A DNA stretch of 64,000 nucleotides from Planctomycetota bacterium. GTDB taxonomy: Bacteria; Planctomycetota; Planctomycetia; Pirellulales; UBA7805. Under the pieces are notes generated by a model. It was given only the letters and a program-made list of their open reading frames with translations, did not search any database and had not been told where the DNA came from. This document shows positions 4,253 to 58,814 of this stretch, one piece after another; position 1 is the first letter of the stretch, and each line of letters starts with the position of its first letter. A program made the translations under genes and the position numbers. The stretch lies in the NCBI GenBank assembly GCA_003389215.1, contig QQVP01000134.1, positions 9,850 to 73,849 on the forward strand, given 5' to 3'.

Positions 4253-5130
4253 GGATTGAGTTCGTAATAGACGGCGGCGGAACCGAAGAAGGGGATCACC
4301 GTGGCCGTGGTGGCCGTCGCGGTGCGATCGCCCTGCAGCTGAAAATCGAAGGCCACGCGCGACTGCCGCAGCCCGCTTTGCGAGCTGTGGATCCCCTGGA
4401 CCCAGGGCAATTCGGTGAAGGCGGTGTTGCCGAGCTGGTAGTCTTGCCACTCTTGCTCGCTCGGCTGGTGAAACGGCGCGAACTGGAGCACACCCCGCAG
4501 CCCGCCGCCGGTGCCCGACACGTTGGCCGTGTGCAGCAGGTCGCTCAACTGCACGACGACCGCGTTGGGATGCGTCTTCATGGACGCCGTCAATGCCAGC
4601 CAGGCGGCCGTGTCGCCGGTCGACGACGTCGGCACCGCGAGGGTCGGCGTGGTGATCTCCACCAGGCGATTGGGGCTACTCTCGTCGTAGGTGAACAGGA
4701 CCAGCTCGCTCGCCAGCGGCAAGCCGTCCGGACTGGCGGGCTCGCCGTCGGGCAGCCAGACCACGAGGGTATCGTAGAACTGGTACGTGGAGACCGGCCG
4801 GGAGACCACGAGGAAACCGGGAAATTCCTCGCTGGTGTGGGCCGCAGCCACGGCACGCTGAATCCGCGCGATCGCCACCCGGGCATGCTGCATGGCCTCG
4901 CCGCTCTGTTCCACAAAGTCGCTGCTTTGGAAAGCGGCCGTGCTGAGCGTTGCCATCGCCACGCCGATGAGCGCGACGAGGCCGACCGCGACGATCATCT
5001 CCGCCATCGTGAACGCTCCGCGCGCAGCGCGACCACTCCGGACTCGCGGCAGGCGGCGACTCGGTGGTTTGGGGTTACAGGCTGGGCACATAGCCAAACA
5101 CTCGGCGGATCGTGGTAAGTTCCTGTTCAC
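4249..5130 (-). CDS. prepilin-type pseudopilin
   Basis: RG|AFTMAEMIVAVGLVALIGVAMATL N-terminal methylation-type motif. True start may be a non-ATG codon closer to the motif (ORF leader is 38 aa). Confidence 0.65.
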   Translation of the reverse strand: MNRNLPRSAECLAMCPACNPKPPSRRLPRVRSGRAARGAFTMAEMIVAVGLVALIGVAMATLSTAAFQSSDFVEQSGEAMQHARVAIARIQRAVAAAHTSEEFPGFLVVSRPVSTYQFYDTLVVWLPDGEPASPDGLPLASELVLFTYDESSPNRLVEITTPTLAVPTSSTGDTAAWLALTASMKTHPNAVVVQLSDLLHTANVSGTGGGLRGVLQFAPFHQPSEQEWQDYQLGNTAFTELPWVQGIHSSQSGLRQSRVAFDFQLQGDRTATATTATVIPFFGSAAVYYELNP

Positions 5131-5785
5131 TGCCGTCGGAAAGGGTGTCGGACACCCGAACCTCGACGGCCCTCATGCCGCTGACGCTGGCGTCGGGTAG
5201 GCGCACCGACGGGTTGCTCTCGTCGACGTAATAGACGTCGATCGTCACGCGCCACTGGTCGAGGTAGCCTTCCGGAATGTGAAAGTCGTTGTGACGAACG
5301 TTGTCGTCCGGGTCCCGCTGACCGAGAGGCTTGCCGTAGACGTCGCGCGGCGGAGACGCGTCGTAGTCGTCGAAGTCATCGATGTCGTCGAAGTATTCTC
5401 GCGTCATTCCCTGCCACTCGCCCGCTTCGGCCCCGAGCGGCCAGTCGTAGGCGGTCCCGCTCACATCGTGGTAGGGCTGGGCCATCACTTCGTCGACGAT
5501 CTGTTCGGCCACCCCGGCGGCCAGCATCTGGTCGAGCGTGTATTGGGTCGTCTGTACGGCGCTCGTCATCGATATCATCAAGGCCGCCCCGGTCACCGTG
5601 GCCACGGTGATGGCGATTAACGCCTCGGCCAGCGTGAAGCCACGACGGTCCGCGACGCGGCGGCTGTGGCCGCTGCGCTGGACGGTTCGGCGGTGATAAC
5701 GACAGAACGGCGGCACGAATCGGCTTCCCAAGGCCTGCGGGTTCCCTCGGCGCGCAGAGTCCCCCAAACTGAGTGACTCACGCAT
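5075..5785 (-). CDS. prepilin-type pseudopilin
   Basis: Canonical RRG|FTLAEALIAITVATVTGAALM motif. Start uncertain (possibly GTG/TTG nearer the motif). Confidence 0.7.
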   Translation of the reverse strand: MRESLSLGDSARRGNPQALGSRFVPPFCRYHRRTVQRSGHSRRVADRRGFTLAEALIAITVATVTGAALMISMTSAVQTTQYTLDQMLAAGVAEQIVDEVMAQPYHDVSGTAYDWPLGAEAGEWQGMTREYFDDIDDFDDYDASPPRDVYGKPLGQRDPDDNVRHNDFHIPEGYLDQWRVTIDVYYVDESNPSVRLPDASVSGMRAVEVRVSDTLSDGSEQELTTIRRVFGYVPSL

Positions 5786-5947
5786 CAAAAACCTACGTTC
5801 CGCACAGCCGCAGTCAAACGCGCGGAACCGCAGGATTGCCGCAATCGGCGTGATCGCGAGCGAGCCGCTGTGTCGCGAAAAATCAACGTGCCGCCGCGCC
5901 ACGTCTGCGACGGCGTGCCCTTCCCGGGCAGCTGGTTCGGCGGCAGC

Positions 5948-7027
5948 CTAGTCCCGGACCCAGTCGAGGGCCCAGTCGAGAGCGACGTCGAGCGAGGTCG
6001 CTGCGTGGGTCAGGGCTCCCACGCTAATTCGCTCCACGCCTGTGGCGGCCAGCTCGGCGACCGTTGCCAGCGTGACACCGCCGGAGGCCTCGAGCTCCAC
6101 GCCGGGCGCGGTCGCATCGCGCACCGCGACTGCGCTTCGCAGATCGTCCCGTGACATGTTGTCGAGCAGCACGATGTCGGGCCCCGCCGGCAACGCTTCG
6201 GCGAGTTGATCAAGCGTGTCGACTTCGACCTCGACGAGGGACGGAACCTCGACACGGGCAGGGCCGTCCCCGGTCGTCGTTCGACCGGCGTTGGCCTGGA
6301 GCAGCTTGCGGGCCTGGCGCACGGCGGCCGCGACGGCAGCAACGCCCACGTCGTCACCGCGCGGTATGCTGTTGGCGTTCGCGAAGGCGAGGTGGTTGTC
6401 CTTGATCAGCACGGCGTCGAACAACCCCAAGCGGTGGTTGTGCCCCCCTCCGCAGCGCACCGCATACTTTTCCAGCCGTCGCCAAGCTGGCGTCGTCTTG
6501 CGGGTGTCGTAGATTCTGGCCTTGGTGCCGGCCACTGCTTCGACATACCGTCGCGTCAGGGTCGCGATTCCCGAAAGCCGTCCCAGCAAATTCAACAGTG
6601 TCCGTTCGGCGGTGAGAAGGTCACGGACCGCCCCCTCCAGGACGGCAATGGTCTCGCCCGGCTCCAGCGCTTCTCCGTCCGCCAGCTGCGAAGTGAGGGT
6701 CACGTTCGCGTGGAACTCATCGAGCACCAGCTGCAACGCAGGCAATCCCGCCAACACGCCCGAGCCGCGGGCCACAACCTTCGCCGACCCCCTCGCATCC
6801 TGGGGAACCAACGCGACGGTCGTCCAATCGTAACTGCGGTCGAGGTCCTCGCGGATGGCCAGTCGGACGATCTGCCGACAGTCGTCCGCGACGTCGGCGT
6901 CCCATTCGATCTGGCGAAAGTCATCGTTCACGTCGATTGCCAACAAAGCCGAGTAGAAGCTGGAAGGCGGCACGCGGCTTGGACCGCGCGGCTTCAGGTC
7001 GGGCCGCGCGACGAATCGTCGATTCAA
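5948..7027 (-). CDS. nadC: nicotinate-nucleotide pyrophosphorylase [carboxylating] (quinolinate phosphoribosyltransferase)
   Basis: YDTRKTTPAWRRLEKYAVRCGGGHNHRLGLFDAVLIKDNH signature plus C-terminal SVGALTHA. The ORF has ~30 extra N-terminal residues compared with typical NadC; the true start is probably a TTG/GTG near 6930. Confidence 0.85.
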   Translation of the reverse strand: MNRRFVARPDLKPRGPSRVPPSSFYSALLAIDVNDDFRQIEWDADVADDCRQIVRLAIREDLDRSYDWTTVALVPQDARGSAKVVARGSGVLAGLPALQLVLDEFHANVTLTSQLADGEALEPGETIAVLEGAVRDLLTAERTLLNLLGRLSGIATLTRRYVEAVAGTKARIYDTRKTTPAWRRLEKYAVRCGGGHNHRLGLFDAVLIKDNHLAFANANSIPRGDDVGVAAVAAAVRQARKLLQANAGRTTTGDGPARVEVPSLVEVEVDTLDQLAEALPAGPDIVLLDNMSRDDLRSAVAVRDATAPGVELEASGGVTLATVAELAATGVERISVGALTHAATSLDVALDWALDWVRD

Positions 7028-48827: not shown

Positions 48828-49670
48828 CTAGTCTTTGGGCATGCCGTTCATGACCGTGCCGCCCTTGTAGCCCTTGAAATCGAGGTAAATCTTATAGCCT
48901 TCGGGGTGATTCAATTGCAGGTCGACTTCATCAATGGCCTGATAGACGAGGCGCATCGGTCGGCCCTCCTCGTCGCGTCGATAGATGCGGACGTCGATGC
49001 CCGCTTCGTCAATCCGCATCGTGATCTTGCGCCCGATGCCTTGATGGACGACGACCGTTTGCACCCCGTCCTCGAGGCTGCTCTGAACGATTTGACTGCG
49101 ACCCCCGATCCGCACTGTGCCGCCGGTGATCGTGATGCCGCCCCCACCGCCGAGCTCGACGTTGCGGAGACCGCCAAAGATGACCGCCTGGCCACCAAGC
49201 CCGTCGACTTCGTCGACCACAGGCGGAAACAGGCTCTCGCGGGCACGACCGGCGATGGTCGTGTCGTCGCTCTTGGTCAGCTGCTTCAGGGCGGAGAGGG
49301 CCGCCGAGCGCGTGGCATCGTCCTCCGAATCGCGGAGTTCGGCCAATACGCCGATGATGCGATAGTTGATCTCGGGCTGGTCCGGTTGAAGATGGTTTCG
49401 CAGATGTCCGACGACGGCCGCATTCCCACGAACGAGCTGCTCGCTGGCGGCCTCGCGAACGGCATACTTCTCATCGCCCAGTTGGGTCACCAGCGAAGCA
49501 ACCTCGGCACGCGAGAGGGCGACGACCGACGTCGCCGGAGCGGCTGGCTCCTCGGTGGCCGGTTCCTCGGCCAGGGCGAGCGGACCGGGCACTCCAATGC
49601 CCGCAGCCACGGCGACCAGAGCGTTGATCGTGCAGCGGAAGTAGCCCATGGACCTCGCGAGCGGCGTCAC
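48828..49670 (-). CDS. secreted hypothetical protein with HEAT-like N-terminal region
   Basis: Signal-like MGYFRCTINALVAVAAGIG; helical repeats EKYAVREAASEQLV...ATRSAALSALKQL; Gly-rich beta region. Confidence 0.45.
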   Translation of the reverse strand: MTPLARSMGYFRCTINALVAVAAGIGVPGPLALAEEPATEEPAAPATSVVALSRAEVASLVTQLGDEKYAVREAASEQLVRGNAAVVGHLRNHLQPDQPEINYRIIGVLAELRDSEDDATRSAALSALKQLTKSDDTTIAGRARESLFPPVVDEVDGLGGQAVIFGGLRNVELGGGGGITITGGTVRIGGRSQIVQSSLEDGVQTVVVHQGIGRKITMRIDEAGIDVRIYRRDEEGRPMRLVYQAIDEVDLQLNHPEGYKIYLDFKGYKGGTVMNGMPKD

Positions 49671-49720
49671 GTCGCGCTTGGTAGACCGGAGAAACGTAGA
49701 CCCTCGAACACTTCGATCTT

Positions 49721-49740
49721 AACACCCGCGCGCGGGTGTT
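49721..49740. promoter_or_regulatory. 20-bp perfect palindrome AACACCCGCGCGCGGGTGTT in a divergent promoter region
   Basis: Perfect dyad ~45 bp upstream of the predicted -35 of the plus-strand gene. Confidence 0.4.
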
Positions 49741-49782
49741 GGCCAGCGGTTTGGGCGAAAACGCGGCAATCGCCAGCTGAAT

Positions 49783-49812
49783 TGACATGGTTTCACGAAA
49801 GTGCGGTACAAT
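49783..49812 (+). promoter_or_regulatory. sigma70-like promoter TTGACA -18- TACAAT
   Basis: TTGACA at 49783-49788 and TACAAT at 49807-49812, ~70 nt upstream of the ATG at 49884. Confidence 0.45.
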
Positions 49813-49883
49813 CACGGGCGCGGCTGGATGGTGGCAGGGCAACGATACGCCCTGAATGGGCATTTTGAAGAGGGGAACCAGTC

Positions 49884-51407
49884 ATGCGAAGATCACGTCT
49901 TGTGGCTTTCTTGTTGATTGTGGCGGCCTTCTGTTTTGGGTCGAACTTCTCGGACTCGTACGCAGACGACTCTGCTCCAGCGAAAGGGGAGCGCGTGGAC
50001 GAAGCGTCGGCCGACGGTGCGAATGGACCAGAATGCGATGAGGAGGCGTGCCAGGCAGAGCCCGGTGAACACGATCGCCAGCACGGCACGGCGATTCCAT
50101 TTGCAGAAAGCCCGCGCAAGGCAGCCTCACGGGCCAAGAACGAGAAGAAGCTCGTTATGGTGCTTCATCTTTCCGGAAACTTCGCCTTGCCGGAGTTTAC
50201 GTGAAACAACGCCGCCCGCTTCAGGGCAGGTGCCCTGCGGAACGAGCGGGTCGCGGCGTTTGCGCGTCGCTACTTTGTCGCCGCGTTCGAACAGAAGGGG
50301 AACTTTCAGGTTCGTCGCGACGGCTCGGGAGTCGACAAGGATGGCGGAGATCTGGTGACGTATTTCTGCACGCCCGAGGGACAGGTCGTCCACTTCGTCG
50401 CCGGCGCGGTCAATGCCCCGGAGTTGCTGCACGGAATGCAATGGGCGGTGCGGGCACAGCAGACGGCCTTCGGTCGTGGCCGAACGGACAAACAGACTGC
50501 CCGCAGGCTAATGCGATTGCATCTGCAAGTGACCGGGGACGATCTCGAGACGTTCATCAACAACTTGACCAGCGGCAATCGCCAACGCTATGGCGAACCG
50601 GGGCACGACCGCTGGCTGACGAATCGCTCGCCGGTCGAGGTCCACCGTTACCTGGCGGCACGACCGCTGGTTCCGCTTCGCGAGATCGAGACCGAAGTGT
50701 TCAGCACATTTGCTGACTACGACGTGCGCGACGAGGAGGACGATGCCCGCTTGGACGCGGTCGCAGCCGTATTCGAAAGATGCCGCGAGGCCCGCCGCCC
50801 CGTCGTGCTGGTCATGACCGCGGAGGGCGGCGCCGCGCTGTCCGATTCGGCGGCCCAACGGCAAATCGACAAGATCCGCGCGGAATTCGTGACGCTCGTT
50901 CTCAGCATCGACGAATTGCCGGCGCTCTCGACACGCATTGAGATCCGCGCGACTAACGGTCAGGAACGAACGGGGAGCGGTACGAAGGTCGACGGATCCC
51001 GCCGGTCGGAAGGCCAGCTCTACGTTTTCGGCCACACGGGTGATCAGGTAGACGTCGTCTCCATCTCGGATGCTGAGGGAACCTTGGGAGCGATGCGGCA
51101 CGCGCTGCAACTGCGCTACCTGGAAGACGCGCAGGCCGCGGTCGCGCAAAATGAGTGGCCCGCGGCAGTGCGCATCGCGAAACGCCTTCGCGCCTGGCCG
51201 GCTCACCCATCGATTGATGAACAAGTGTCGGAGTTGGCTACACGGATCCTGGATCGCTCGCGTGCCCGTCGCGCCCTGGCGGTGGCCGAGAAACGACTGG
51301 AGCAGAGCTTGGAACGTGGTCGGGCTAGTCTACAGAAGGTTGCCGCGGATTATCCCGAAACGCCCGAGGCCCGCACGGCGAGAATTATCCTTGCAGCGAT
51401 CGAGTGA
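49884..51407 (+). CDS. secreted thioredoxin-fold protein with in-frame TGA at 50202-50204 (candidate selenoprotein; otherwise a split gene/pseudogene)
   Basis: ORFs 49884-50204 and 50355-51407 share one frame, separated only by this TGA. Read through, the translation is a continuous thioredoxin-fold N-domain ...AKNEKKLVMVLHLSGNFALPEFT-U-NNAARFRAGALRNERVAAFARRYFVAAFEQ... In an alignment to YyaL/DUF255 (...[40 protein letters not shown]...) the TGA occupies the first Cys of CxxC. SECIS-like hairpin at 50211-50257. Confidence 0.45.
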
Positions 51408-51470
51408 ATGTTCTGACTTCAAGACCACCCGTTCGTGAGCAAGCGTGGTGATACGACTGCGGAGTGACGT

Positions 51471-52880
51471 ATGATCTTTACTCGATTGCGGTTGCTACTT
51501 GTGTTGGCAGCCGTGCTGGGAAGCGCTCAAGCGGTCGGCGCCACGCTGCCCAACATCGTCTTCTTTCTCTCCGACGATCACCGGTCCGACATGCTCGGCT
51601 GCGCGGGCCACGAGATTGTCAAAACGCCGCACATCGATCGCCTGGCCGCCGAGGGCGTGCGGTTCGAGAACGCCTTCGTCACCACTTCGATCTGCGCCGC
51701 GAGCCGGGCCACGATTCTTACCGGGCTGTGGGAGCGGACGCACCGCTTTACCTTTGGCACGCCGCCGCTGGCCGAGCGCTGGATCGACGACAGCTATCCC
51801 GTTCGCCTGCGGGCCGCTGGTTATCGAACTGGCTTCGTGGGCAAGTTTGGCATGAACGTGAGCCGCCACGATTGGAAGCGATTGTGGGACTGGTCGGCCG
51901 CACAGAATCGGACGCCTTACTTGAAAAAGCAGCCGGACGGCAGCCTCCGCCATCTGACCGATCTGAACGGCGATCGGGCTATCGAGTTTCTCAATACCTG
52001 TCGGGCAGAGGAGCCCTTCTGCTTGTCGGTCAGCTTCAGTGCGGCGCATGCCGAAGACGGCGATCGCGAGAACCATTTTCCCTGGCCTTCCAGCGAAGAG
52101 GGGCTGTACGAAGATGTGGTCATTCCACCGCCGCGCGTGCGGACCGATTTCTGGAAGGAACTGCCCGGGTTCTTTCACAAGTCGATGAATCGCAACCGCT
52201 ACTTCTGGCGCTGGGATACGCCGGAGAAGTACCAGCGAAACGCGAAGGCCTATTACCGCATGATCACGGGGCTCGATCGCAACGTCGGTCGCGTGCTGGC
52301 CGAGCTGGAGCGACGCGGCTGGCTCGACAACACGATCGTGATTTTCACGGGCGACAACGGCTACTACAAAGGCTCGCGCGGCTTCGCCGGCAAGTGGACC
52401 CATTACGAGGAATCGCTGCGGGTGCCGCTGGTCGTGTTCGATCCACGATTGCCGAAGGCGAAGCGGGGCCAGGTTGTCGAGTCGCTGGCCCTCAACGTCG
52501 ACCTGGCGCCCACGATGCTGGCGGCGGCGAACGTCGAGGTCCCCGCGAGCCATCAGGGTCGCGATCTGGGGCCGCTGGTACGGGGCGAATCGGCGGACGA
52601 CTGGCGCGACGACTTCTTCTGCGAGCACCTCTTCGATTACGCAACGGTGCTGAAGTGGGAAGGCGTCCGCGGGCAGCGCTACGTCTATGCTCGCTACTTC
52701 GAGCATTTGCCCGAGGGCGAGTTTCTGCACGATCTTGAGGCGGATCCCCTGGAGTTGACGAATCTGGTCGGCAGCGCCGAACACTCGGAGGTGCTCGAAC
52801 GCATGCGGGCACGCTGCGACGAATTGCGCGACCGTTACGGAGGCGAGTTTCGGCGGCCCCGGTCGCCCACAGATGAGTGA
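51471..52880 (+). CDS. sulfatase
   Basis: Signal peptide; SICAASRATILTG formylglycine-type motif; conserved sulfatase fold. Confidence 0.9.
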   Translation: MIFTRLRLLLVLAAVLGSAQAVGATLPNIVFFLSDDHRSDMLGCAGHEIVKTPHIDRLAAEGVRFENAFVTTSICAASRATILTGLWERTHRFTFGTPPLAERWIDDSYPVRLRAAGYRTGFVGKFGMNVSRHDWKRLWDWSAAQNRTPYLKKQPDGSLRHLTDLNGDRAIEFLNTCRAEEPFCLSVSFSAAHAEDGDRENHFPWPSSEEGLYEDVVIPPPRVRTDFWKELPGFFHKSMNRNRYFWRWDTPEKYQRNAKAYYRMITGLDRNVGRVLAELERRGWLDNTIVIFTGDNGYYKGSRGFAGKWTHYEESLRVPLVVFDPRLPKAKRGQVVESLALNVDLAPTMLAAANVEVPASHQGRDLGPLVRGESADDWRDDFFCEHLFDYATVLKWEGVRGQRYVYARYFEHLPEGEFLHDLEADPLELTNLVGSAEHSEVLERMRARCDELRDRYGGEFRRPRSPTDE

Positions 52881-57692: not shown

Positions 57693-58814
57693 TTGAGGAT
57701 GTTCCTACGGCAGAGATATTGGTCGCTGGCCGTTTGGGCTGGCCTTTTCTCGGCAACGTCGCTGACTTCCGCAGCCGACGACACGGCCGCACCCGGCGGC
57801 GCCTCACAACAAGAAGCCTCCCAAGAAGAAGCCATTGCCGAGTGGATTCGGGACCTCGGACACCCTTCAGCGCGACGCCGCGACAAGGCGACGCGCAATC
57901 TCATCCACGTGGGTCCCGCCGCGGCCTCACGATTGGCGGAGTCGGCGACCAGCACCGATTTCGAGGTCGCGTTTCGCTCCTTTCGCATCCTCTCGGCACA
58001 GCTCGCCTCGTCCGATCCCGTGACGAGCGAGGCGGCCGAAGCGACGCTGAAACAACTGTCGGCCATCGACGACGACTCGGTCGCCCGTCGCGCGGTCAAT
58101 ACGATGCGCGGTCTGCTGAAGCGCCGTCAAACCGTCGTGATCACCGCCCTCCAGCGCCGAGGTGCCATGGTCAACGTCACCGGCGACCTCGGCGATCCCA
58201 GCGCCACGATCTCCATCGTCCTGGGCGACAACTGGGACGGCAGCGGCGAAGACCTGCGGATGCTACGCCGACTGGAAAACGTGACCTCCCTGCAGGTCAA
58301 TCTCTATCACGGCGGGGAGAGCGTCTTCACCGTTCTGGCCGAACTGACCGACCTGGAATCCCTGTCGCTCACGAACCTCAACGTGCCGGACGAGCAATTC
58401 GCCGACTTGGCCGCGCTCAAGAAGCTGCGGCGGCTGGAACTGGCGGGATGCATGATCGGGGATCGCTCGATCCGACATCTCGCATCGCTTACGAAACTTG
58501 AGCACGTCAACCTCAACAACACACTCATCACGGGAGAGGCGCTGGCCCATTTGCAAAAGCTCCCGCGGCTGACCACCCTTTCGCTCGCTTCGACCCGCCT
58601 GTCCGCCGACGAGTTCCGACAGCTCGCCGCCTTCAAACAGCTGGAACAGATCGAAGTCTCCGGAACCCAGTTCAGCGGCGACTCGCTGATGAGCCTGGCG
58701 GGCTTGGAAAAGTTGCGCATCGTTACGGCCCAAGCGGCGCGCGTGACCCCCTACGACGTCGAGGACTTCGCGGATGAGCGAGCCGACGTCGCCATCGAGT
58801 TGGCGGGCCGCTAG
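57693..58814 (+). CDS. secreted leucine-rich-repeat protein
   Basis: Signal peptide; LxxLxLxxN repeats (LENVTSLQVNL, LTDLESLSLTNLNV, LKKLRRLELAGCMI, LTKLEHVNLNNTLIT, LPRLTTLSLAST). AGGAGG SD 10 nt upstream. Confidence 0.65.
   Translation: MRMFLRQRYWSLAVWAGLFSATSLTSAADDTAAPGGASQQEASQEEAIAEWIRDLGHPSARRRDKATRNLIHVGPAAASRLAESATSTDFEVAFRSFRILSAQLASSDPVTSEAAEATLKQLSAIDDDSVARRAVNTMRGLLKRRQTVVITALQRRGAMVNVTGDLGDPSATISIVLGDNWDGSGEDLRMLRRLENVTSLQVNLYHGGESVFTVLAELTDLESLSLTNLNVPDEQFADLAALKKLRRLELAGCMIGDRSIRHLASLTKLEHVNLNNTLITGEALAHLQKLPRLTTLSLASTRLSADEFRQLAAFKQLEQIEVSGTQFSGDSLMSLAGLEKLRIVTAQAARVTPYDVEDFADERADVAIELAGR

What the first reader, a model, noticed from the sequence alone, without database searches (positions are those of the whole stretch)
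49884..51407. Thioredoxin-fold gene interrupted by a single in-frame TGA at the CxxC-Cys position, followed by a SECIS-like hairpin: candidate selenoprotein
Two ORFs (49884-50204 and 50355-51407) are in the same frame and separated only by TGA at 50202-50204. Read through, the N-terminus is a continuous thioredoxin-like domain with a signal peptide. Aligned to YyaL/DUF255-type domains, the anchors AKRENKPVLV~AKNEKKLVMV and [13 protein letters not shown]~VAAFARRYFVAAF agree, and the UGA falls exactly where the N-terminal redox Cys sits. Starting 7 nt after the UGA, 50211-50257 folds into a hairpin: stems GCCG/CGGC, CCCGCT/AGCGGG, CAGGGC/GCCCTG; apical loop AGGT, ~24 nt from the UGA. That spacing and the G-containing loop are compatible with bacterial SECIS elements. 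Alternatives: a recent nonsense mutation, or two separate genes with the second starting at GTG 50355 without a signal peptide.
Basis: partly seen in the sequence, partly recalled or inferred. Interest (0 to 1): 0.75.

Follow-up and report, generated by a model that had tools for sequence, protein, structure and literature searches.

The report
Uncatalogued Planctomycetota thioredoxin-fold selenoprotein gene
The "interrupted" gene is almost certainly one intact gene whose in-frame UGA encodes selenocysteine, and it belongs to a large, apparently uncatalogued family of exported thioredoxin-fold proteins in Planctomycetota that gene callers routinely split in two.

Summary
49884-51407 is one reading frame with a single in-frame TGA (50202-50204), and a hairpin starts just after it.

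Comparative data make a nonsense mutation, a sequencing error or two separate genes very unlikely. All 83 loci examined (window, 2 metagenome contigs, 80 GTDB species genomes from several Planctomycetota lineages) carry TGA at exactly this codon. Protein sequence is conserved on both sides: KLVFxxHxSGNFxxxxFT-U-NNAxxxRxxAL.

A stem-loop follows the UGA in two lineage-specific forms. Both show compensatory base changes and meet the published bacterial SECIS (selenocysteine insertion hairpin) geometry. A covariance model built without the window hits only 50202-50252 (E 9e-12).

One member lies under 1 kb from tRNA-Sec and within about 5 kb of selD and selB. UGA is also an ordinary stop in this window.

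AlphaFold and Foldseek give a thioredoxin fold of the Thioredoxin_7/DUF255/DsbD-gamma type. Sec sits where the first CxxC cysteine would be, but there is no second cysteine (motif T-U-N-N-A).

No Pfam or NCBIfam model matches, and nothing in a 2026 catalogue of 119 prokaryotic selenoprotein families fits. About 2,900 homologue clusters exist; I found one true Cys form.

Untested: Sec machinery in this MAG, selenium incorporation, and function.

The parts
49884..51407 (+). Complete selenoprotein gene: 507 codons with Sec at codon 107, then stop TGA at 51405-51407
   Evidence: Single in-frame TGA. Codon-position GC is continuous across it. tblastn HSPs from distant family members run straight through the TGA, for example L008 at 46.6% identity over 50085-50477.
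49884..49964 (+). Predicted N-terminal signal peptide or membrane anchor (MRRSRLVAFLLIVAAFCFGSNFSDSYA); cleavage site not determined
   Evidence: By inspection: a basic n-region followed by 13 hydrophobic residues. Homologues also have an N-terminal hydrophobic segment followed by a low-complexity linker (L019). No predictor was run.
50079..50201 (+). Conserved N-terminal part of the thioredoxin-like domain (helix alpha0 and strand beta1: HGTAIPF...KKLVMVLHLSGNFALPEFT), ending at the UGA
   Evidence: The 50 codons before the UGA align without gaps in 83 loci, with mean column identity 52%. Matching elements in the model of Cys homologue P0061 are helix 100-109 and strand 113-119.
50202..50204 (+). 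In-frame UGA, read as selenocysteine (Sec107)
   Evidence: TGA at the homologous codon in 80 of 80 GTDB loci plus L001, L002 and the window. It aligns with the first Cys of CGPC in 2kuc. It sits at the N-terminus of helix alpha1 in the model.
50222..50237 (+). Conserved apical SECIS-like hairpin: stem CAGGGC/GCCCUG, loop AGGU at 50228-50231, 23 nt after the UGA
   Evidence: Searches give the fold. In class A (43 loci), 91.5% of cells pair, 4 pairs show double compensatory changes, and 0 of 500 shuffles reach the observed values. A covariance model built without the window hits 50202-50252 at 45.1 bits, E 8.7e-12, and the next best hit in 64 kb has E 0.56. The published bacterial SECIS constraints are met.
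50208..50260 (+). Extended hairpin with additional lower stems; specific to this window and not conserved in the family
   Evidence: RNAfold gives -32.6 kcal/mol for 50202-50261. The lower stems are absent from L001, L002 and most other loci.
50205..50468 (+). Remainder of the thioredoxin-like domain (alpha1, beta2, a beta-hairpin insert, beta3, beta4, alpha3). Includes the GGD loop before beta3, which is GGN in most members.
50367..50369 (+). Family-invariant cysteine (TGC; YFC motif at the end of beta3), 55 residues after Sec
   Evidence: Nearly invariant, invariant in the 27 sequences, and nearly invariant again. Its role is unknown. From thioredoxin-fold topology it is inferred to lie at the opposite end of beta3 from the active site; this was not measured.
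50355..51407 (+). The truncated gene call in the public record (REJ66593.1, DWQ31_14200, 'hypothetical protein', 350 aa, starting at an internal GTG)
50487..50714 (+). Helical linker region; contains the conserved His residues and the HxLLAxxPL motif
   Evidence: Helices 95-110, 114-122, 143-152 and 158-170 of the model. Conserved positions are listed.
50733..51146 (+). Second alpha/beta domain with thioredoxin-like strand and helix order and no Cys or Sec motif (inferred to be non-catalytic)
51156..51401 (+). C-terminal all-helical, TPR-like domain

Best explanation
49884-51407 is a single functional gene for an exported or membrane-anchored selenoprotein.

Recoding, inferred from the standard bacterial mechanism: during translation the UGA at 50202-50204 is read as selenocysteine. 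The hairpin 23 nt downstream (apical stem 50222-50237, loop AGGU) acts as a bacterial SECIS element. It recruits SelB-GTP-Sec-tRNA(Sec) to the ribosome.

The product: a signal peptide, a linker, then a thioredoxin-fold domain. Sec sits at the N-terminus of helix alpha1, where the nucleophilic Cys of a CxxC motif normally sits. After that come a helical linker, a second thioredoxin-like domain without a redox motif, and a TPR-like tail.

Chemistry, inferred only: the motif is T-U-N-N-A with no resolving Cys, and the loop before beta3 is GGN (GGD here) where the cis-proline would be expected. The most likely chemistry is therefore that of a single-selenol oxidoreductase acting outside the cytoplasm. 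It would form a selenenylsulfide with a substrate or partner thiol, or a selenenic acid with a peroxide. It would not work as a self-contained dithiol/disulfide couple.

Shown here: conservation of the UGA, the conserved hairpin with covariation, the fold, and the position of Sec in the fold. Inferred: SelB dependence, export, and the chemistry.
For: (1) TGA at the homologous codon in 83 of 83 loci from several Planctomycetota lineages. Protein sequence is conserved on both sides, with invariant T-U-N-N-A.
(2) Nearly all homologues in two protein databases are gene calls cut at this point. About 140 of the best 150 hits start just after it. All 75 N-terminal hits are 36-88 aa; the 55 listed end in ...T, mostly ...FT. 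Only 5 of the best 120 of 2,911 clusters span the site, and three of those are TGA printed as W (confirmed on DNA for P0227).
(3) No conserved restart codon exists. The first in-frame ATG, GTG or TTG lies 4-65 codons after the UGA.
(4) The hairpin is conserved in two structural classes with compensatory changes. It meets the published bacterial SECIS constraints on loop size, stem length, G in the first two loop positions, 16-37 nt spacing and MFE. The covariance model built without the window gives E 8.7e-12 at 50202-50252 only.
(5) The one true Cys (TGT) homologue has lost the hairpin, with 2 of 6 pairs remaining (sequence, pairs counted by hand).
(6) L019, a Singulisphaera MAG, has selB, selD and tRNA-Sec within about 5 kb upstream of its family member. 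Some Planctomycetes, including Gemmata and Isosphaera, are reported to have selA, selB, selC and selD (PMC4807772).
(7) TGA is a normal stop for the neighbouring sulfatase and for this gene itself, so the recoding depends on context.
(8) Thioredoxin fold: AF2 pLDDT 85-97 over the domain. Foldseek matches 3f9u, 7tkv, 3ira, 2lst, AGR3, DsbD-gamma and 2kuc at probability 0.99-1.0. The profile alignment places U on the first Cys of CGPC.
Against: No selA, selB, selD or tRNA-Sec lies in the 64-kb window, and the rest of this MAG could not be read. Sec decoding in this particular organism is therefore inferred.

No Rfam SECIS family matched. Taken alone, the window's hairpin is only about a 3% tail event among TGA triplets. 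The hairpin lies in codons for conserved residues (R-A-G-A-L), so part of its conservation is protein-driven.

Only one Cys homologue was found, whereas most selenoprotein families have many. Variants with Ser, Gly or Ala at the site exist.

The function has no experimental or genomic-context support. There are no conserved neighbouring genes.
Confidence: 0.88

Rival explanations
1. The TGA is a recent nonsense mutation, a pseudogene lesion, or a sequencing or assembly error in this MAG.
For: A single MAG assembly. The public annotation treats the downstream part as a separate hypothetical protein.
Against: The same codon is TGA in 83 of 83 independent loci from different lineages and assemblies. 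Sibling MAGs carry the same protein. There are no other lesions in 507 codons.
Confidence: 0.01
2. These are two real genes: a small secreted N-terminal peptide ending at TGA, and a separately initiated downstream protein starting at GTG 50355.
For: Gene callers produce exactly this split across the databases.
Against: The 50 codons between the TGA and GTG 50355 have coding composition and are conserved as protein, including the invariant NNA. The first possible start varies from 4 to 65 codons after the TGA, with no conserved site. The split would cut one thioredoxin fold between beta1 and alpha1 and leave the main body without a signal peptide. tblastn HSPs cross the stop.
Confidence: 0.02
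3. The UGA is recoded, but not as selenocysteine. Examples would be hairpin-stimulated read-through that inserts Trp, Cys or Arg from a near-cognate tRNA.
For: No direct evidence for selenium. No Rfam SECIS match. Very few Cys forms. Non-Cys variants (Ser, Gly, Ala) exist at the site.
Against: The site is the catalytic Cys position of a thioredoxin fold, the classic location of Sec. The hairpin geometry fits the bacterial SECIS consensus. In class B, G and U in the loop fall at positions 23 and 24 counted from the U of UGA; from memory, these are the positions of the SelB-contacting bases in E. coli fdhF. One member is linked to tRNA-Sec, selD and selB. The only sense-codon homologue that has lost the hairpin encodes Cys.
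Confidence: 0.05
4. It is a genuine family member, but the Sec trait has been lost in this MAG, so the gene is a non-functional relic here.
For: Sec machinery was not seen for this genome.
Against: The ORF is intact on both sides. The SECIS apical stem is perfectly paired and scores 45 bits against the family model. Codon-position bias is preserved. Near-identical copies exist in sibling MAGs. The window is only a small fraction of the genome, so not seeing sel genes here says little.
Confidence: 0.04

Closest known systems
Thioredoxin_7 / Thioredox_DsbH (DUF255, YyaL-type) / DsbD-gamma group of thioredoxin-fold domains (Pfam PF13899, PF03190; structures 2kuc, 3ira, 7tkv, 3f9u, 1uc7)
   Same: Same fold and the same placement of the catalytic residue at the N-terminus of alpha1. 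Like many of these proteins it is extracytoplasmic. There is weak sequence similarity: Pfam E 0.015-0.04 in 4-5 of 27 members, and PDB profile E 0.039.
   Different: It falls below every Pfam gathering threshold. It has Sec in place of the first Cys and no second Cys (U-N-N-A instead of C-x-x-C). A GGN/GGD loop sits where the cis-Pro loop is expected. It also has a beta-hairpin insert and a long C-terminal extension: helical linker, second thioredoxin-like domain and TPR-like tail.
[quoted passage not shown]
   Same: Sec at the redox position of a thioredoxin fold, encoded by UGA, with a SECIS hairpin immediately downstream inside the coding region.
   Different: No hit to any of their Pfam or NCBIfam models, even at E <= 1. 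The motif T-U-N-N-A is not in the 119-family table. Cys homologues are almost absent, whereas the literature states that nearly all selenoproteins have numerous Cys homologues (PMC12013277).
Bacterial SECIS consensus (bSECISearch model) and the E. coli fdhF SECIS
   Same: A stem-loop just 3' of the UGA. [quoted passage not shown] Spacing is 23 nt in class A (including the window) and 18 nt in class B, both within the 16-37 nt range. In class B, G and U fall at positions 23 and 24 from the U of UGA, as I recall for fdhF.
   Different: No Rfam SECIS model matches. Two different registers of hairpin serve one protein family. Many class B stems carry a C-A mismatch.
Single-cysteine thioredoxin-fold proteins (AGR2/AGR3, CxxS) and GPx-type UxxT selenoproteins
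   Same: One nucleophilic Cys or Sec at the alpha1 N-terminus without a resolving Cys three residues on. AGR3 (3ph9) is among the best structural matches. This suggests mixed selenenylsulfide or peroxidase-type chemistry.
   Different: No detectable sequence relationship. The conserved neighbours of Sec are two Asn residues and a GGN loop, not the GPx Gln/Trp/Asn set or the AGR motif. The chemistry is untested.

Membership tests
Bacterial selenoprotein gene (Sec-UGA plus SECIS) | In-frame UGA conserved at the same codon in homologues, with protein conservation on both sides | tested here: met
   83 of 83 loci have TGA. The flanks are conserved and T-U-N-N-A is invariant.
Bacterial selenoprotein gene (Sec-UGA plus SECIS) | Stem-loop immediately downstream that meets the bacterial SECIS constraints: loop 3-9 nt, stem >= 4 bp, G in the first two loop positions, 16-37 nt from the UGA, MFE <= -7.5 kcal/mol | tested here: met
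   Window: 6-bp stem, loop AGGU, spacing 23 nt, -10.1 kcal/mol for the apical hairpin alone. Compensatory changes occur in both hairpin classes. The covariance model gives E 8.7e-12. In my strict contiguous-stem implementation 49 of 83 loci pass; most failures are class B stems with one mismatch.
Bacterial selenoprotein gene (Sec-UGA plus SECIS) | Cys-containing homologues aligning with the UGA | tested here: met
   One true Cys form: P0061, codon TGT in L083. Other sense variants are Ser TCA, Gly GGC and Ala preceded by Cys (P0127). The feature is met, but by a single sequence.
Bacterial selenoprotein gene (Sec-UGA plus SECIS) | selA, selB, selC (tRNA-Sec) and selD present in the same genome | not testable with these tools
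For another family member, L019, selB, selD and tRNA-Sec lie within about 5 kb. selA was not seen there.
Bacterial selenoprotein gene (Sec-UGA plus SECIS) | Selenium physically incorporated at the UGA position | not testable with these tools
   Needs 75Se labelling or mass spectrometry.
Thioredoxin-fold superfamily, Thioredoxin_7/DUF255 (DsbH)/DsbD-gamma group | Thioredoxin fold with the catalytic residue at the N-terminus of alpha1 | tested here: met
Thioredoxin-fold superfamily, Thioredoxin_7/DUF255 (DsbH)/DsbD-gamma group | Score above the Pfam gathering threshold for PF13899 or PF03190 | tested here: not met
   The window protein gives no hit at E <= 1. Only sub-threshold hits (best E 0.015 and 0.041) appear, in 4-5 of 27 members.
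Thioredoxin-fold superfamily, Thioredoxin_7/DUF255 (DsbH)/DsbD-gamma group | C-x-x-C (or U-x-x-C / C-x-x-U) redox pair | tested here: not met
   The motif is U-N-N-A and is invariant. There is no Cys at +3. The only other invariant Cys lies 55 residues downstream, at the end of beta3.
Any catalogued prokaryotic selenoprotein family (119 families in PMC13188914; NCBIfam and Pfam models) | Match to the family's Pfam, NCBIfam or TIGRFAM model, or to its Sec motif | tested here: not met
   NCBIfam release 20.0 gives 0 families at E <= 1 for the read-through protein, P0061 and P0008. Pfam gives nothing significant. No T-U-N-N-A or UNNA motif appears in the table. The few entries defined only by CDD ids could not be scanned directly.
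Rfam SECIS families | Covariance-model match | tested here: not met
   cmscan of 49800-50500 at E <= 10 returned only chance hits to unrelated families.

The most novel reading that the evidence does not exclude
This may be a previously undescribed, Planctomycetota-wide selenoprotein family that depends almost entirely on Sec. It has roughly 2,900 sequence clusters, occurs at at least 200 places in GTDB species genomes, and often has several paralogues per genome. Its active-site signature (T-U-N-N-A plus a GGN loop, with no resolving Cys) has not been described. Because it has almost no Cys homologues, homology-based selenoprotein finders would have missed it. If so, it could be one of the main reasons the Sec trait is kept in Planctomycetota. 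Its chemistry may also differ from classical thiol-disulfide exchange, for example a periplasmic selenol peroxidase or reductase, or a selenium- or metal-handling role.
Probability: 0.45. Interest if true: 0.8.

Novelty: new member of a known kind. Interest (0 to 1): 0.68.

Why it matters
Several consequences would follow if this is confirmed.

- It would add a large selenoprotein family in a phylum where selenium use has hardly been studied.
- Thousands of public gene calls would need correcting. They are currently split into a 40-90 aa fragment and a truncated "hypothetical protein".
- The family would be a rare case of a selenoprotein with almost no Cys counterparts. That bears on the long-standing question of when Sec cannot be replaced by Cys. 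It also exposes a blind spot in Cys-homology-based selenoprotein prediction.
- The two alternative SECIS registers, and the codon and amino-acid choices that the RNA stem appears to impose, make it a clean natural example of RNA structure constraining a protein sequence. Class A uses AGG/AGA for Arg, while class B pairs Phe with Asn and Leu with Gly.
- The active-site motif U-N-N-A plus GGN gives enzymologists a defined target.

Tried and rejected
- **Word-indexed protein search** with the read-through protein found only the gene itself.
- **First genome-contig scan** with the single protein found nothing. The alignment-based scan was needed.
- The representative search and the structure tool would not accept a read-through sequence. 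I used the post-UGA part and a natural Cys homologue instead.
- **Pfam, NCBIfam and Rfam** gave no significant matches.
- **Alignment A5 discarded.** An alignment mixing N-terminal fragments with C-terminal fragments was misaligned by MAFFT at the junction. A6 was used for folding.
- **afdb50 fold library** was unavailable.
- **Conserved gene neighbourhood.** Clustering ORFs around 83 loci showed no conserved neighbours, only common planctomycete families: sulfatase, PSCyt/PSD1, DUF1501, ECF sigma and kinase. I therefore rejected an operon-based inference of function.
- **Other TGA-interrupted genes in the window.** Six composition-passing candidates appeared. Four were translated (6152, 25932, 27666, 61193); their products look like antisense shadow ORFs and were not pursued. 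The other two (47582 on +, 50129 on -) overlap genes on the opposite strand and were not translated.
- **Sec machinery in the window.** Nothing was found in the window.
- **Apparent Trp forms.** I considered that the 'W' forms (P0227-P0229) were real Trp variants. The DNA of P0227 shows TGA, so I rejected this.
- **Genome-wide UGA reassignment.** TGA terminates this gene and the adjacent sulfatase, so I rejected this too.
Full report
**1. The observation**

Reading 49700-51600 and listing ORFs confirms two same-frame ORFs, 49884-50204 (ATG, 106 codons) and 50355-51407 (GTG, 350 codons). Translating 49884-51407 gives 507 sense codons interrupted by one TGA at 50202-50204.

The 150 nt between the TGA and the GTG have GC content of 0.72/0.48/0.74 at the three codon positions. 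The downstream ORF has 0.71/0.48/0.74. The frame is therefore coding straight through the stop.

The apical stem is CAGGGC/GCCCUG at 50222-50237 with loop AGGU at 50228-50231. Lower stems extend to about 50208-50260. The 81-nt fold has z = -2.0 against dinucleotide shuffles.

On its own this hairpin is not remarkable. I coded the published bacterial SECIS (selenocysteine insertion hairpin) constraints and applied them to every TGA triplet in the window. Of 1452 triplets, 8.7% pass and 3.2% are at least as stable.

**2. What the homologues show**

A full HMMER scan of 1.84 billion representative proteins with the post-UGA 400 aa found 269 relatives. About 140 of the best 150 "begin" at their residue 2-5, aligned just downstream of our UGA. 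That is the signature of gene calls cut at a shared stop.

The two closest relatives were fetched with their DNA. Both have TGA at the same codon and the same flanks (...KFT*NNA...).

An alignment-driven scan of one genome per GTDB species found 200 places encoding a relative and kept the best 80 loci. They come from MAGs labelled Pirellulales, Gemmatales/Gemmataceae, Isosphaeraceae/Singulisphaera, Planctomycetaceae/Planctomycetales and unclassified Planctomycetota.

In 80 of 80, the codon before the match is TGA. Both flanks are conserved: KLVFxxHxSGNFxxxxFT-U-NNAxxxRxxAL. The query began after the UGA, so the selection did not depend on the stop.

The 50 codons upstream align without gaps, with 52% mean column identity. 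In a 27-sequence read-through alignment, T-U-N-N-A, an upstream SG pair, and GG and YFC within the GGNVxSYFC motif are invariant.

A profile of the N-terminal 50 aa retrieves 75 database proteins. All are 36-88 aa, and the 55 I listed end in ...T, mostly ...FT.

A profile spanning the site retrieves 2,911 clusters at E <= 1e-5. Only five of the best 120 cover the site:
- Three show 'W'. The DNA of P0227 has TGA there, so this is an alternative-code translation artefact.
- Two show Ser. One was checked and is TCA, one substitution from TGA, with the hairpin intact.

From the representative search, one true Cys form (TGT) and one Gly form (GGC) also exist.

There is no conserved restart. The first in-frame ATG, GTG or TTG lies 4-65 codons after the UGA. 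tblastn HSPs from distant members cross the stop in the window. A nonsense mutation, a sequencing error and a two-gene arrangement are thereby excluded for practical purposes.

**3. The RNA element**

The 60 nt after the UGA fall into two classes.

*Class A* has 43 loci, including the window, from MAGs labelled Pirellulales, Isosphaeraceae, Planctomycetaceae and unclassified Planctomycetota.
- Counting the U of UGA as 1, it has a 6-7 bp stem at positions 20/21-26 and 31-36/37.
- The loop is 4 nt (AGGU, GGGC, GGUC...).
- Of all cells, 91.5% pair, against 31-49% when the 3' partner is slid by 1-3 columns.
- Four pairs show changes on both sides, for example CAGGGC/GCCCUG, CAGAGC/GCUCUG and CAAGGC/GCCUUG.
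- No shuffle out of 500 reaches the observed pairing or covariation.

*Class B* has 40 loci, mostly MAGs labelled Gemmataceae/Gemmatales (several carry other labels).
- It has a 6-bp stem at positions 16-21 and 27-32.
- The loop is CGUGU at 22-26, and there is a lower stem.
- 84% of cells pair, and three pairs show double changes.

The RNA appears to constrain the protein. Class A always encodes its Arg (Lys, AAG, in L001/L002) with AGG or AGA, whereas class B uses CGU. In class B, Phe (UUC) goes with Asn (AAC) and Leu (CUC) with Gly (GGC), which keeps one base pair intact.

Both classes satisfy the consensus bacterial SECIS model quoted in PMC13188914. That model requires a loop of 3-9 nt, a stem of at least 4 bp, a G in the first two loop positions followed by G or U, and 16-37 nt spacing. 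Spacing here is 23 nt for class A and 18 nt for class B. From memory, G23 and U24 of class B coincide with the SelB-contacting G23 and U24 of E. coli fdhF.

A covariance model built from the 42 class A loci without the window finds exactly one significant site in the 64 kb. It is 50202-50252 on the + strand, at 45.1 bits and E 8.7e-12; the next hit has E 0.56. This model also encodes the conserved coding sequence, so it is not independent of the protein homology.

The single Cys-codon homologue retains only 2 of 6 stem pairs (counted by hand), as expected if the stem exists for Sec insertion. No Rfam family matched.

**4. Sec machinery**

The window has no tRNA gene.

L019, a Singulisphaera MAG, carries three Sec genes upstream of its family gene, whose UGA is at 5998-6000:
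- selB at 393-1442 on the - strand, with a Pfam Beta-barrel_SelB hit
- selD at 1743-2918, 39% identical to E. coli SelD
- tRNA-Sec at 5023-5121

Kim et al. (PMC4807772) report selA, selB, selC and selD in Gemmata obscuriglobus, Isosphaera pallida and two Pirellulaceae.

TGA terminates this gene itself and the adjacent sulfatase. UGA is therefore not reassigned genome-wide.

**5. The protein**

AlphaFold2 on the natural Cys homologue P0061, with 105 aligned sequences, gives pLDDT 85-97 over residues 90-230. The order is alpha0, beta1 (113-119), the Cys, alpha1 (131-140), beta2, a beta-hairpin, beta3, beta4 and alpha3.

Foldseek against the PDB returns thioredoxin-fold proteins at probability 0.99-1.0:
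- 3f9u (cytochrome c biogenesis-related)
- 7tkv (Thioredox_DsbH)
- 3ira (DUF255)
- 2lst
- AGR3 (3ph9)
- DsbD-gamma (1uc7)
- 2kuc
- DsbH (2ju5)

A family profile against PDB sequences aligns "FT..U-NNA" with "FTTW-C-GPC" of 2kuc at E 0.039. Pfam gives only sub-threshold Thioredoxin_7 and Thioredox_DsbH hits.

The window's own post-UGA 400 aa fold with mean pLDDT 87.8. The model has four parts:
- the rest of the thioredoxin domain
- a helical linker (residues 95-170)
- a second alpha/beta domain with thioredoxin-like order (177-314) and no redox motif
- a TPR-like helical tail (318-399)

There is no Cys at +3. Instead there are two invariant Asn residues, and a GGN loop (GGD in the window) lies directly before beta3, where thioredoxins have the cis-proline. 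From fold topology, the invariant Cys of YFC lies at the far end of beta3; I could not measure the distance.

With an N-terminal signal or anchor sequence (by inspection), I infer an extracytoplasmic single-selenol oxidoreductase. Genomic context gives no help, because there are no conserved neighbours.

**6. Comparison with what is known**

NCBIfam release 20.0, which holds the models NCBI uses to name selenoproteins, gives nothing at E <= 1, and Pfam gives nothing significant. The 2026 review listing 119 prokaryotic selenoprotein families with their model ids and Sec motifs contains nothing like T-U-N-N-A.

The only paper on planctomycete selenoproteins lists one "hypothetical" candidate that I could not compare. 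The family may therefore have been glimpsed there.

Current predictors require Cys homologues (PMC12013277). That would explain why a family with almost none has been missed.

The public record annotates only the truncated 350-aa product (REJ66593.1, DWQ31_14200).

**7. Verdict**

This is a selenoprotein gene of a known general kind, a thioredoxin-fold protein with an in-ORF bacterial SECIS. The family is large and, as far as these libraries and papers show, uncatalogued. It is nearly Sec-obligate and has an unusual active-site motif.

Confidence is about 0.9 that the UGA is decoded as Sec in the family. It is somewhat lower for this particular MAG, and about 0.5 for the proposed chemistry.

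Noticed in passing
L019:393-6963: In a Singulisphaera MAG, selB (- strand), selD (+ strand), an ECF-sigma/DUF1559 ORF, tRNA-Sec (5023-5121, - strand) and the family gene (5323-6963, UGA at 5998-6000) sit together. This is the only one of 84 loci with such linkage. It may be chance, or it may hint at a functional tie to selenium metabolism.
   Followed up: partly
L003-L082, positions +16 to +37 after each UGA: One protein family uses two different SECIS registers. Class A has its stem at +21 and a 4-nt loop; class B has its stem at +16 and a CGUGU loop. The stem appears to dictate codon and even amino-acid choice: AGG/AGA Arg in class A against CGU in class B, and in class B Phe paired with Asn and Leu paired with Gly.
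   Followed up: partly
L085:713-1477 (P0227); also P0228 and P0229: JGI gene calls show Trp at the Sec position. The DNA of P0227 has TGA, and the tool reports that the gene does not translate to the stored protein. The contig was evidently translated with an alternative code. Short-contig calls like this can masquerade as sense-codon homologues. P0228 and P0229 were not checked on DNA.
   Followed up: yes
L086:430-1173 (P0226) and L084:13-1029 (P0013): These are rare sense variants that still keep the hairpin: Ser TCA with a perfect class B stem, and Gly GGC with 5 of 6 class A pairs. They may be recent losses of Sec or base-call errors. In contrast, the Cys (TGT) form in L083 has lost the stem.
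   Followed up: partly
window:47213-48766 (-) and 51471-52880 (+): Two sulfatase genes (Pfam Sulfatase plus SGSH_C, E about 1e-44) flank the locus. Sulfatases also lie near the two closest homologues, L001 and L002. Sulfatases are very abundant in these genomes and the linkage is not conserved across the family.
   Followed up: partly
L029, L051, L054, L055, L065, L074, L075 and L038 (record titles): Several ENA MAGs labelled 'uncultured Alcaligenaceae bacterium', and one labelled 'Bacteroidetes bacterium', carry genes of this family; all but L038 have the class B hairpin seen mostly in MAGs labelled Gemmataceae. Probably taxonomic mislabelling or binning contamination rather than spread of the family outside the phylum.
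   Followed up: no
L029/L055, L050/L057, L073/L077, L046/L082: Some MAGs contribute two loci, so the family has paralogues within genomes. There is also a short form of about 235 aa after the UGA (for example L087) and a long form with the second domain and TPR tail (as in the window).
   Followed up: no
P0038 (284 aa): A database protein fuses an unrelated N-terminal region of about 100 aa (it looks HAD-hydrolase-like by eye; not scanned) to the post-UGA part of a family member. The FT-U-NNA segment is missing. Possibly a chimeric or mis-called gene.
   Followed up: no
window:53703-57275 (-), 57693-58814 (+), 48828-49670 (-): Neighbouring genes include a 1190-aa DUF748 protein, an LRR protein and a HEAT-repeat-like secreted protein. 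No link to the finding is evident.
   Followed up: no
window:6152, 25932, 27666, 47582 (+) and 50129, 61193 (-): Six other TGA codons join long open frames with coding-like composition. Four were translated (6152, 25932, 27666, 61193) and look like antisense shadow ORFs of a high-GC genome. They were not scanned against protein families.
   Followed up: partly
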